A DNA stretch of 64,000 nt from an uncultured Alphaproteobacteria bacterium (GCA_963833715.1 CAWHZB010000001.1:1185-65184), one strand, 5' to 3'. Shown: positions 49,343 to 50,264, counted from the first letter of the stretch. Program-made: numbers and translations. The notes: a model not told the origin generated them from the letters alone.

Positions 49343-49427
49343 GGCATCCAGGCATGCGAAAAGCCGCGGCCGGGGAAATCCCGATCGCGGCATCTGTTCC
49401 TGGCCGTAAAAAAGTGCAAGCAGCCGT

Positions 49428-49979
49428 TTAGGCCGCTTTCGCCTGTGCCTTCTGGCGCTGAGCCTTTCGCGGTGCTCTTGGCACCACGCGTAGGGCCGGC
49501 ACGGTTAGGTCGGAGACCGTGCGTTTGCGCCGAATAATGGCCTCGCGCGCCTCGAAGGCGTTGGCGAGAGCCATCAGCGCCACCTCGGGCTTCAGCCCTG
49601 CACATCCGCGCGCGTCGACGGCCGCGAAGCCGGTACGCGAGCATGCTTGCAACGACAAGTGCCCTGAGCCCAGAACCGCGACGCCCGACACGCCGCCACC
49701 GGCGACGCGATCGAGGTGGAGACTCTTGAGCTTCAAGCCGAGGGTTTCGACGGCGCGTCTCGTCGCGCGCTCGGCCGACTTGACGTCGTCGAGGTGCTTG
49801 GCGCCGTGGAGATCAATAAAGATCGTAGTCCCTGCAGTACTTGTACTTTGCTCGACCGGACTCGTTACCGGGTCCTGAACTTCCGCGCTGAACTCAGCAC
49901 GCGAGTGATCTTCCTTTTGGGCGGTGCTTGAACGAGTTAAGTCCATCCCCAATTGGAAGAGGGTGTCATTAAAGGCCAT
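49428..49979 (-). CDS. S-adenosylmethionine decarboxylase (SpeD/SpeH-type) homologue lacking the self-cleavage Ser
   Basis: Fold-level pattern G..I.IDL.G...LDD, GGVSGVAVL, H.S, G.AA.D..C. The conserved E-S-H reads S-G-H. The ORF is intact, with a GGGGAGG SD. Confidence 0.75.
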   Translation of the reverse strand: MAFNDTLFQLGMDLTRSSTAQKEDHSRAEFSAEVQDPVTSPVEQSTSTAGTTIFIDLHGAKHLDDVKSAERATRRAVETLGLKLKSLHLDRVAGGGVSGVAVLGSGHLSLQACSRTGFAAVDARGCAGLKPEVALMALANAFEAREAIIRRKRTVSDLTVPALRVVPRAPRKAQRQKAQAKAA

Positions 49980-50264
49980 ATGACCCTCCCCAACCAGCAG
50001 ATAGGTTTGACTCGCCCGCTCCTTACCTCATTGGTTCTGGAAAACCTCGACCATGTTGGCAGGTGGACAGACGAGAAAGGTGCATATGAGGCCAAGGCCC
50101 TTCTCGCGCAAGATTTTTTTTTGCCCTCAGCGCCATTTTTTTTCGTCGCGACTTTACCGCGACTTAATGGAACTATTTTTGCTGCGTGACGAGCGCGTCA
50201 TGCGCGGCGAGCCGGAGGGCGTTTGAAGGCGCGCAGAACGCCGTAGGCGATTACGAAACCGCCG

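What the first reader, a model, noticed from the sequence alone, without database searches (positions are those of the whole stretch)
49428..49979. Intact AdoMet-decarboxylase homologue that cannot form its pyruvoyl cofactor: candidate bacterial pseudoenzyme
Seen: the 183-codon ORF is uninterrupted and has a strong SD and a plausible promoter. It aligns by eye to SpeD/SpeH-type AdoMetDC, but the site reads VAVLG-S-G-H-LSL where the family has VAVL(A/S)-E-S-H-ISI. HTWPE becomes QACSR, while the His and the downstream Cys (ARGCAG) remain. Known: these proenzymes self-cleave at Glu-Ser to make the catalytic pyruvoyl group, so Gly at that position should abolish activity. Trypanosomatid prozyme is a dead AdoMetDC paralogue that activates the real enzyme. 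Inference: this may be a regulatory or scaffold paralogue, or a polyamine/SAM-binding protein. The N-terminal MAFNDTLFQLGMDLTRSSTAQKEDH looks like the start of active orthologues as I recall them (unverified), and there is a basic RKAQRQKAQAKAA tail. No spermidine synthase gene is adjacent.
Basis: partly seen in the sequence, partly recalled or inferred. Interest (0 to 1): 0.7.

Follow-up and report, generated by a model that had tools for sequence, protein, structure and literature searches.

The report
Dead SAM decarboxylase kept under selection
This Hyphomicrobium gene encodes a SAM-decarboxylase look-alike that cannot make its catalytic cofactor yet has been conserved across the genus, still attached to the structured RNA leader that fronts real spermidine-synthesis genes in related bacteria.

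Summary
ORF 49428-49979 (-) is a 183-aa SpeH-type AdoMetDC homologue. Profile, pairwise and structure alignments all put Gly106 at the pyruvoyl-forming Ser, and Glu->Ser and the HxWPE motif->QACSR are also changed.

It is not private decay. Gly is invariant in every full-length relative down to 49% identity. The gene is in 53 of 61 genomes of the genus, and dN/dS of the domain is 0.15-0.23.

It is not a prozyme-like partner. This genome has no second AdoMetDC homologue and no spermidine synthase; it has nspC plus a carboxynorspermidine synthase homologue instead.

Synteny shows an in-situ orthologue of an active speH (asmA-speH-speE in related Hyphomicrobiaceae) that outlived the loss of speE. 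The protein turned basic (pI 9.4 against 5.6).

The invariant N-terminal 24 residues are an RNA constraint. dS there is about 0.01, against 0.4-0.7 in the rest of the gene. They lie in an uncatalogued leader with two alternative folds, one hiding the ribosome-binding site. The same leader precedes active speH-speE and nspC operons across Alphaproteobacteria.

Best reading: a conserved non-catalytic pseudoenzyme with a regulatory or binding role, still under polyamine-pathway translational control. What it binds is unknown.

The parts
49428..49979 (-). CDS of the 183-aa dead SpeH-type AdoMetDC homologue (stop codon included)
   Evidence: TIGR03330 scores 46 bits, below the 75.65 cut-off; active relatives score 123-135 bits.
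49530..49829 (-). AdoMetDC-fold domain, residues 51-150
   Evidence: AF2 pLDDT is about 90 over this stretch. The Foldseek top hits are T. maritima AdoMetDC 1tmi/1tlu, target TM 0.73, rmsd 2.1 A. dN/dS 0.15-0.23.
49659..49667 (-). Degenerate self-cleavage site Ser105-Gly106-His107, in place of Glu-Ser-His
   Evidence: Gly is invariant while the residue before it varies (S, T, A, I, C, D, E, R, N, K, G).
49647..49649 (-). Gln111 at the position of the His of the HxWPE motif
   Evidence: That His is 100% conserved in the 70 active relatives.
49602..49604 (-). Retained Cys126, at the position of the conserved Cys of the FMCG motif of active relatives (T. maritima Cys83 by my recollection of the numbering)
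   Evidence: It is 100% conserved in the window's clade, but lost in other Ser-less lineages.
49431..49529 (-). Disordered basic C-terminal tail (net charge about +8) ending in ...AKAA
   Evidence: A C-terminal Ala-Ala is found in 35/35 Ser-less forms and 35/70 active forms.
49908..50074 (-). Ultraconserved nucleotide block covering the 5' leader and codons 1-24
   Evidence: dS of codons 1-24 is 0.008-0.013, against 0.37-0.71 in the domain (codons 51-150) and up to 1.15 elsewhere in the CDS. The covariance model R1 matches 49893..50024 at 111.6 bits; the window is in the model's seed.
49909..49960 (-). Hairpin inside the coding region. P1 is UCUUCC/GGAAGA, P2 is UUGGG/CCCAA, P3 is CUUAA...UCAAG. 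It would leave the SD free.
   Evidence: -16.4 kcal/mol. Compensatory changes in P3, and in P1, P2 and P3 in an unbiased class-wide sample.
49943..50004 (-). Alternative helix pairing AUCUGCUGGUUGGGGAGGGU (which includes the SD) with ACCCUCUUCCAAUUGGGGAU. It would hide the SD and the AUG.
   Evidence: -24.2 kcal/mol, z = -2.76. 83% of cells are paired across 30 diverse genomes, with weak covariation.
49984..49991 (-). Shine-Dalgarno GGGGAGGG
49408..49438 (-). Terminator-like hairpin plus T-run overlapping the stop codon
   Evidence: consensus scan only

Best explanation
The gene encodes a conserved pseudoenzyme.

What it is:
- It is a class-1a (SpeH-type) S-adenosylmethionine decarboxylase fold that has lost the serine from which the pyruvoyl cofactor is made (Ser->Gly106). 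The preceding Glu and the HxWPE motif are also gone. It therefore cannot self-cleave or decarboxylate SAM. This step is inferred from the established pyruvoyl mechanism of the family and from the depositors' description of the T. maritima S63A mutant as non-processing.
- It is the in-situ orthologue of the active speH of related Hyphomicrobiaceae, where the locus reads asmA-speH-speE.
- The Hyphomicrobium lineage lost speE. It carries nspC and a carboxynorspermidine synthase homologue, the alternative route to spermidine/norspermidine.

What happened to it:
- The speH remnant was kept under purifying selection.
- Its pocket residues were replaced and its net charge turned from acidic to strongly basic.

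How it is probably controlled (inferred):
- Translation is still governed by the ancestral structured mRNA leader.
- That leader has two mutually exclusive folds. One sequesters the ribosome-binding site and start codon; the other lies within codons 7-24.
- The same leader precedes genuine speH-speE and nspC-carboxynorspermidine-synthase operons across Alphaproteobacteria.

Most likely role (inferred): a non-catalytic binding or regulatory protein made in response to the same polyamine-pathway signal, binding an anionic partner such as nucleic acid or an acidic protein. The partner is unknown.
For: Dead site
- the alignments place Gly at the Ser position.
- TIGR03330 scores 46 bits, below the 75.65 cut-off; active relatives score 123-135 bits.

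Fold kept
-.

Conserved clade
- Gly is invariant in about 108 homologues down to 49% identity.
- present in 53 of 61 genomes of the genus.
- at least 34 clusters at 50% identity have Gly at the site.

Selection
- dN/dS 0.15-0.23; active clades 0.05-0.13.
- of 43 positions that are at least 90% conserved in the active clade, 16 are kept, 15 relaxed and 12 switched. 27 positions are newly conserved.

In-situ orthologue, speE lost
- synteny.
- speE absent in 58 of 61 genomes.
- nspC scores 428 bits, above its 409 cut-off. The adjacent carboxynorspermidine synthase homologue scores 402 bits, a best hit but below its 800 cut-off.

Charge shift
- domain +3.1 against -5.7; pI 9.4 against 5.6.

Leader
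- nucleotide-level conservation.
- covariation.
- energies of the two folds.
- the leader sits on active speH-speE and on nspC operons.
- no Rfam match.
- one copy per genome in 31 of 401 alphaproteobacterial genomes.
Against: - No direct evidence that the protein is made.
- No ligand or partner is identified.
- In at least five genomes the leader ORF and the body are in different frames. One high-quality genome of the genus lacks the locus (G013). The fusion, and perhaps the protein, is therefore dispensable in some lineages.
- Branches are long and dN/dS is 2-3 times that of active enzymes.
- His107, Ser109, Asp122 and Cys126 are still conserved in the window's clade, so a residual or altered chemistry is not excluded.
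- The ligand of the leader is unknown, and P1/P2 are nearly invariant, so most covariation rests on few sequences.
Confidence: 0.7

Rival explanations
1. Slowly decaying relic. Only the RNA leader, or translation of its first codons, is functional. The AdoMetDC-like body is a passenger that has not yet been destroyed.
For: - The leader is far more conserved than the body.
- Leader and body are frame-uncoupled in L025, L026, L109, L121 and L145.
- Branches are long after the Ser loss.
- Catalytic-loop sequences are extremely diverse among the Ser-less clusters.
Against: - Domain dN/dS is 0.15-0.23, with dS 0.4-0.7.
- 27 positions are newly conserved, and the charge shift is directional.
- The body ORF is intact in more than 50 species, and stays intact even where its frame is shifted relative to the leader.
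- Gly106 is invariant although its neighbours vary.
Confidence: 0.12
2. Prozyme-like subunit. The dead copy heterodimerises with, and activates or regulates, an active AdoMetDC paralogue, as in trypanosomatids.
For: - Precedent in T. brucei (PMC5201418, found).
- About 11 of 61 genomes of the genus carry a second, distant PF02675 protein with a Thr-Ser-His site.
Against: - The window's genome has a single PF02675 locus, as do most genomes of the genus.
- No spermidine synthase is present to use decarboxylated SAM.
- The gene is an orthologue at the ancestral speH locus, not a duplicate.
Confidence: 0.03
3. Still an enzyme, with a different pyruvoyl-independent chemistry or another substrate, using the retained His107, Ser109, Asp122 and Cys126.
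For: - These residues are at least 82-100% conserved in the window's clade.
- The AdoMetDC fold has been re-purposed before, into ornithine and arginine decarboxylases (PMC10407285).
Against: - All known neofunctionalised members keep the Ser and the pyruvoyl group (abstract of PMC10407285).
- Cys126 and His107 are not conserved across the other Ser-less lineages: FMGG, LMAG, VRRG, and G(Q/R/T/L) in place of GH.
- The pocket residues H, W, P, E, Y, F and M are replaced.
Confidence: 0.1

Closest known systems
Class 1a (SpeH-type) pyruvoyl S-adenosylmethionine decarboxylase, e.g. T. maritima TM0655 (PDB 1tlu; S63A non-processing mutant 1tmi); PF02675 / TIGR03330
   Same: Same fold (target TM 0.73). 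41-42% identity to active alphaproteobacterial orthologues. Same genomic locus, same mRNA leader, N-terminus and C-terminal Ala-Ala as those orthologues. The Cys is retained.
   Different: No Ser for the pyruvoyl group (Gly106), no Glu before it, and the HxWPE motif is lost. It scores below the equivalog cut-off. There is no speE partner. pI is 9.4 rather than 5.6.
Trypanosomatid AdoMetDC prozyme (catalytically dead paralogue, PDB 5tvm; PMC5201418)
   Same: A dead member of the AdoMetDC superfamily kept by selection.
   Different: Prozyme is a eukaryotic class-2 paralogue that works only with an active partner. Here there is no active partner in the genome, and the protein is an orthologue, not a duplicate.
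N-terminal AdoMetDC-like domain of human spermine synthase (PDB 3c6k)
   Same: An AdoMetDC-like fold. It appears among the fold hits (E = 6.6e-4). That it is non-catalytic there and serves dimerisation is my own knowledge, not tested here.
   Different: It is a domain fused to an active aminopropyltransferase. Here the protein stands alone and no aminopropyltransferase exists in the genome.
SD-sequestering translational riboswitches and leaders of Alphaproteobacteria (e.g. SAM-II RF00521), and polyamine-pathway leaders (speF motif RF00518; the speFL arrest peptide)
   Same: A cis-acting leader of a metabolic operon with two alternative pairings, one of which covers the SD and AUG.
   Different: No Rfam family matches. 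The element extends 72 nt into the coding region. It occurs on two non-homologous spermidine-synthesis operons and on this dead enzyme. The ligand or trigger is unknown.

Membership tests
AdoMetDC class 1a (SpeH; PF02675 / TIGR03330) | Sequence homology to the AdoMet_dc domain | tested here: met
   PF02675 scores 44.7 bits against a cut-off of 25.
AdoMetDC class 1a (SpeH; PF02675 / TIGR03330) | Score above the functional-equivalog cut-off | tested here: not met
   TIGR03330 scores 46.2 bits against a cut-off of 75.65. Active relatives score 123-135 bits.
AdoMetDC class 1a (SpeH; PF02675 / TIGR03330) | Glu-Ser self-cleavage site that provides the pyruvoyl group | tested here: not met
   Ser105-Gly106 aligns with Glu62-Ser63 of 1tlu and with ES of 70 active relatives.
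AdoMetDC class 1a (SpeH; PF02675 / TIGR03330) | His of the HxWPE motif | tested here: not met
   Gln111 and the sequence QACSR stand in place of H(S/T)WPE.
AdoMetDC class 1a (SpeH; PF02675 / TIGR03330) | Conserved Cys of the FMCG motif | tested here: met
   Cys126 is kept. It is lost in other Ser-less lineages.
AdoMetDC class 1a (SpeH; PF02675 / TIGR03330) | Alpha/beta sandwich fold | tested here: met
   AF2 pLDDT is about 90 for residues 51-150. Foldseek matches 1tmi/1tlu at E = 6e-8.
AdoMetDC class 1a (SpeH; PF02675 / TIGR03330) | Pathway partner: an aminopropyltransferase (speE) in the genome | tested here: not met
   PF01564 is absent from G000 and from 58 of 61 genomes of the genus.
AdoMetDC class 1a (SpeH; PF02675 / TIGR03330) | Self-processing and decarboxylase activity | not testable with these tools
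   Needs protein expression, mass spectrometry and an enzyme assay.
Prozyme-like pseudoenzyme (dead subunit of an active AdoMetDC) | Catalytic residues lost while the gene stays under selection | tested here: met
Prozyme-like pseudoenzyme (dead subunit of an active AdoMetDC) | An active paralogue in the same genome | tested here: not met
   G000 has a single PF02675 locus. Most genomes of the genus also have one.
Prozyme-like pseudoenzyme (dead subunit of an active AdoMetDC) | Heterodimerisation with, and activation of, the active enzyme | not testable with these tools
   Biochemical.
CUCUUCCAAYUGGGGAU ... CCCAANNGGAAGA, with the P1-P3 hairpin | tested here: met
   The window matches R1 at 111.6 bits, but it is in the seed, so this is met by construction. 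Genomes outside the seed match at 35-101 bits.
   In A4, 8 of 16 pairs have changes on both sides, against 2.7 +/- 1.3 in shuffles (0 of 500 shuffles reach it). In A3, all 5 pairs of P3 have such changes. Both alignments are fitted to the model.
   Needs in-line probing and reporter fusions.

The most novel reading that the evidence does not exclude
The dead SpeH is a bacterial counterpart of antizyme/prozyme logic. It would be a basic, non-catalytic protein whose synthesis is gated by a polyamine-pathway riboswitch-like leader. It would then act back on polyamine homeostasis by binding nucleic acid (possibly its own or the nspC mRNA) or the carboxynorspermidine enzymes. The leader itself would be a new polyamine- or dcSAM-sensing RNA class shared by two non-homologous spermidine pathways.
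Probability: 0.15. Interest if true: 0.85.

Novelty: new variant of a known kind. Interest (0 to 1): 0.6.

Why it matters
- Public sources name these proteins 'S-adenosylmethionine decarboxylase'. For a large clade, at least 34 clusters at 50% identity, that annotation is very likely wrong. Metabolic reconstructions would then infer a spermidine route that these genomes lack.
- My literature searches found no description of a stand-alone bacterial AdoMetDC pseudoenzyme. This would be a natural case of an enzyme surviving the loss of its pathway by taking on a non-catalytic role.
- The dead enzyme keeps the ancestral mRNA leader. The same leader sits on speH-speE and on nspC operons. That makes the leader a strong candidate for a polyamine-pathway sensor, and makes this gene a handle for finding what that sensor controls.

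Tried and rejected
- Prozyme model: rejected. There is no second PF02675 locus in the genome and no speE.
- 'The N-terminal peptide is a protein motif shared with other proteins of the genome': tblastn of residues 1-45 and 151-183 against the whole genome found nothing else. AF2 predicts both ends disordered. Synonymous sites there are frozen, so the constraint is on the RNA.
- 'Ser105 is the real cleavage Ser with a one-residue shift': rejected. A 91%-identical relative reads DAGH, and other members have T, A, I, C, D, E, R, N, K or G at that position.
- Known RNA family: Rfam gave no match at E <= 10 on the window and none on the leader in four other loci.
- Sigma-70 promoter: none found.
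- Literature: seven of eight full-text searches found no description of a Ser-less bacterial AdoMetDC clade, of the LFQLG N-terminus, or of a leader on speH or nspC. The eighth only gave the trypanosomatid prozyme precedent.
- Apparent absence of the gene in G079 is a contig-end artefact.
- MAFFT plus RNAalifold alone recovered only the invariant P1/P2 pairs. P3 needed a structure-aware alignment.

Full report
**1. The observation**

- The ORF at 49428..49979 on the minus strand is 183 codons and uninterrupted. A GGGGAGGG Shine-Dalgarno lies 5-12 nt upstream of the ATG.
- Pfam assigns residues 53-149 to AdoMet_dc (PF02675, 44.7 bits, cut-off 25).
- The NCBIfam equivalog for the Bacillus-type enzyme (TIGR03330) scores only 46 bits against a cut-off of 75.65. 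Active relatives found later score 123-135 bits.
- phmmer against the PDB aligns the query LGSGHLSLQACSR...DARGCA with T. maritima ISESHLTIHTWPE...DLFTCG. The pyruvoyl-forming Ser is Gly106, the Glu before it is Ser105, the His of HTWPE is Gln111, and the Cys is retained (Cys126).
- BLASTP to the closest active relatives (41-42% identity over about 155 residues) gives the same register with no gap near the site.
- The PDB entry 1tmi is described by its depositors as the 'S63A non-processing mutant'. A residue without a side-chain hydroxyl at this position should therefore prevent processing; this step is inferred.
- The one point I could not confirm is the promoter. The sigma-70 scan finds none.

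**2. Not a private lesion**

- A search of the 5.8-billion-protein collection gave 1091 hits. The top 120 are Hyphomicrobium-like proteins, where a source names them.
- In about 108 full-length homologues down to 49% identity, the Gly is invariant while the residue before it varies freely.
- The gene is found in 35 of 61 related genomes by tblastn, almost all within the genus. By PF02675 it is in 53 of 61 genomes of the genus.
- One apparent absence, G079, is a contig end. Only one high-quality genome, G013, really lacks it.
- An exhaustive phmmer search of 1.84 billion cluster representatives finds 387 relatives at E <= 0.001.
- Among the best 150, at least 34 clusters at 50% identity have Gly at the Ser position. 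The surrounding loops are very diverse: DGH, EGH, GGR, KGH, RGH, NGH, AGT. Nearly all carry the same N-terminus and a C-terminal (K/R)AA.

**3. Selection**

- Nei-Gojobori estimates on 19 intact genes of the genus give dN/dS = 0.23 for codons 51-150. For the 11 closest sequences the value is 0.15.
- Active clades give 0.05-0.13. Constraint is therefore relaxed about 2-3-fold but is clearly purifying.
- There are 43 domain positions at least 90% conserved in 70 active relatives. Of these, 16 are kept, 15 relaxed and 12 switched to a different conserved residue. A further 27 positions are newly conserved.
- The domain's mean net charge moved from -5.7 to +3.1. With the +8 tail, the whole protein has pI 9.4 against 5.6 for active relatives.
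- AlphaFold2 models residues 51-150 with pLDDT about 90 and leaves residues 1-50 and 151-183 disordered. Foldseek's best PDB matches are T. maritima and A. aeolicus AdoMetDC (target TM 0.72-0.73).

**4. Genomic and pathway context**

- In the genus the order is asmA-family gene -> this gene -> convergent MFS transporter.
- In related Hyphomicrobiaceae with an ES-H enzyme (L080, L090, L136, L149) the order is asmA -> speH -> speE. In a more distant genome, speH is directly followed by speE. The window's gene is therefore the in-situ orthologue of an active speH whose partner speE was deleted.
- Spermidine synthase (PF01564) is absent from this genome and from 58 of 61 genomes of the genus.
- The genome has a single PF02675 locus. 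About 11 genomes of the genus, not this one, have a second and very different 125-aa paralogue with a Thr-Ser-His site. This removes the prozyme model for this genome.
- The genome carries an adjacent pair of alternative-route genes. One is nspC (TIGR01047, 428 bits, above the 409 cut-off). The other is a carboxynorspermidine synthase homologue (402 bits, a best hit but below the 800 cut-off).
- A maximum-likelihood tree places the Ser-less forms as long-branched groups next to the Hyphomicrobiaceae ES-H enzymes. At least four changes of state are needed, but the long branches make that count unsafe.

**5. The N-terminus is an RNA element**

- Across about 24 genomes of the genus, the region from about -95 to +72 relative to the ATG is nearly identical at the nucleotide level, synonymous sites included. 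The rest of the gene falls to 40-50% amino-acid identity.
- dS of codons 1-24 is 0.008-0.013, against 0.37-0.71 in the domain (codons 51-150) and up to 1.15 elsewhere in the CDS.
- A 17-mer from this block (CTCTTCCAAYTGGGGAT) was searched in one genome per species.
- Most of these loci are ES-H speH genes followed by speE. In Chelatococcus, Aquamicrobium, a Hyphomicrobiales MAG and a Devosia-labelled MAG, the same leader opens a 67-86-codon upstream ORF in front of nspC; where the held sequence reaches far enough (L074, L077), carboxynorspermidine synthase follows.
- No Rfam family matches.
- The sequence supports two mutually exclusive folds:
  - a helix pairing AUCURCUGG-UUGGGGAGG (with the SD) to CCUCUUCCAAUUGGGGAU, at -24.2 kcal/mol and z = -2.8;
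  - a hairpin inside codons 7-24, at -16.4 kcal/mol, made of P1 UCUUCC/GGAAGA, P2 UUGGG/CCCAA and a variable P3.
- A covariance model of the hairpin separates the true loci from the chance 17-mer hits. It finds exactly one copy in 31 of 401 evenly sampled alphaproteobacterial genomes.
- All five P3 pairs show compensatory changes.
- In the unbiased class-wide sample, 8 of 16 pairs change on both sides, against 2.7 +/- 1.3 in shuffles, with changes in P1, P2 and P3. The SD helix is 83% paired with weaker covariation. These alignments are fitted to the model, so the counts lean towards the structure.
- An earlier finding of this scan in another genome (e1-5132343) reached the same reading of this leader. 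I treat it as agreement, not as independent support.

**6. Leader and body can be uncoupled**

- In L109, L121 and L145 a single extra A (GACTTGAACTCG) shifts the frame inside P3 and turns P3 into a 6-bp stem with a tetraloop. The downstream body stays open in the other frame.
- L145's body is an ES-H, active-type enzyme.
- L025 and L026 shift frame just after the leader, again with intact bodies.
- So the leader behaves as a module that can be fused to the body or can overlap it as an upstream ORF, as it does in front of nspC. The body is maintained for its own sake.

**7. Interpretation**

- Shown:
  - the homologue is Ser-less, correctly folded in the model, and under purifying selection;
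  - it occupies the ancestral speH locus in a lineage without speE and without an active AdoMetDC;
  - its 5' end lies inside a conserved structured leader shared with genuine spermidine-synthesis operons.
- Inferred:
  - it cannot form pyruvoyl and is non-catalytic;
  - its synthesis is still gated by a polyamine-pathway signal acting on SD accessibility;
  - its basic surface and tail point to an anionic partner.
- The C-terminal Ala-Ala occurs in 35/35 Ser-less forms and 35/70 active forms. It resembles ClpXP-type C-terminal degrons. That comparison rests on my own knowledge and is untested.
- What the protein binds, and what the leader senses, remain unknown.

**8. Novelty**

- Full-text searches found the trypanosomatid prozyme and the pyruvoyl-dependent neofunctionalised bacterial homologues. 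They found no description of a Ser-less bacterial clade, of this N-terminus, or of this leader. The searched library does not cover subscription journals.
- I classify the finding as a new variant of a known kind: a pseudoenzyme of a well-known family, with an unusual retained regulatory leader.

Noticed in passing
window 49893-50074 (-); also L030-L149 and L163-L192: An uncatalogued structured mRNA leader covers the SD and the first 24 codons and has two alternative folds. It occurs once per genome in about 8% of sampled alphaproteobacterial genomes. There is no Rfam match.
   Followed up: yes
L064, L074, L077, L085, L130: In L064, L074, L077 and L130 the same leader opens a 67-86-codon upstream ORF in front of nspC (in L074 and L077 followed by carboxynorspermidine synthase). 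L085 has the upstream ORF, but its locus ends before the next gene. L064, L074 and L085 also share a ...NSAKAL... motif near the end of that ORF, unexplained.
   Followed up: partly
L145, L109 (=G009), L121, L026 (G035), L025 (G007): Leader ORF and enzyme body lie in different frames, and both are intact. The recurrent +A insertion lengthens the P3 stem. L145's body is an active-type ES-H enzyme. Possible explanations are an internal start, translational coupling, +1 frameshifting or assembly error.
   Followed up: partly
L150-L153, L157, L158 (G012, G018, G036, G020, G064, G009): About 11 genomes of the genus carry a second, distant 125-aa PF02675 paralogue (...IIETSHVAVHIWDE...DFYTCG) with a Thr-Ser-His site and no leader. 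It is absent from the window's genome. Its function is unknown.
   Followed up: partly
L055, L103: Two Methyloceanibacter-like MAGs read AELH (Ser->Leu) in a speH that is otherwise typical and still followed by speE. This may be a recent inactivation or a sequencing error.
   Followed up: no
L089 (Verticiella alkaliphila, Betaproteobacteria): The leader model matches at 99 bits outside the Alphaproteobacteria, which suggests horizontal transfer of the leader-gene module.
   Followed up: no
G000:C10:152758-155063 (L196): The window's genome encodes an adjacent carboxynorspermidine synthase homologue and nspC (TIGR01047 above cut-off). This is the alternative route to spermidine/norspermidine. 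No copy of the leader lies in front of it.
   Followed up: partly
window 49431-49436 (-) and the C-termini of the family: The C-terminus ends in Ala-Ala in all 35 Ser-less forms and in half of the active relatives. It may be a protease-recognition tag (not tested).
   Followed up: partly
L082, L094: MAGs labelled Devosia carry Ser-less forms (RGH, GGH) at an asmA-linked locus of the Hyphomicrobium type. This may be mis-binning or transfer.
   Followed up: no
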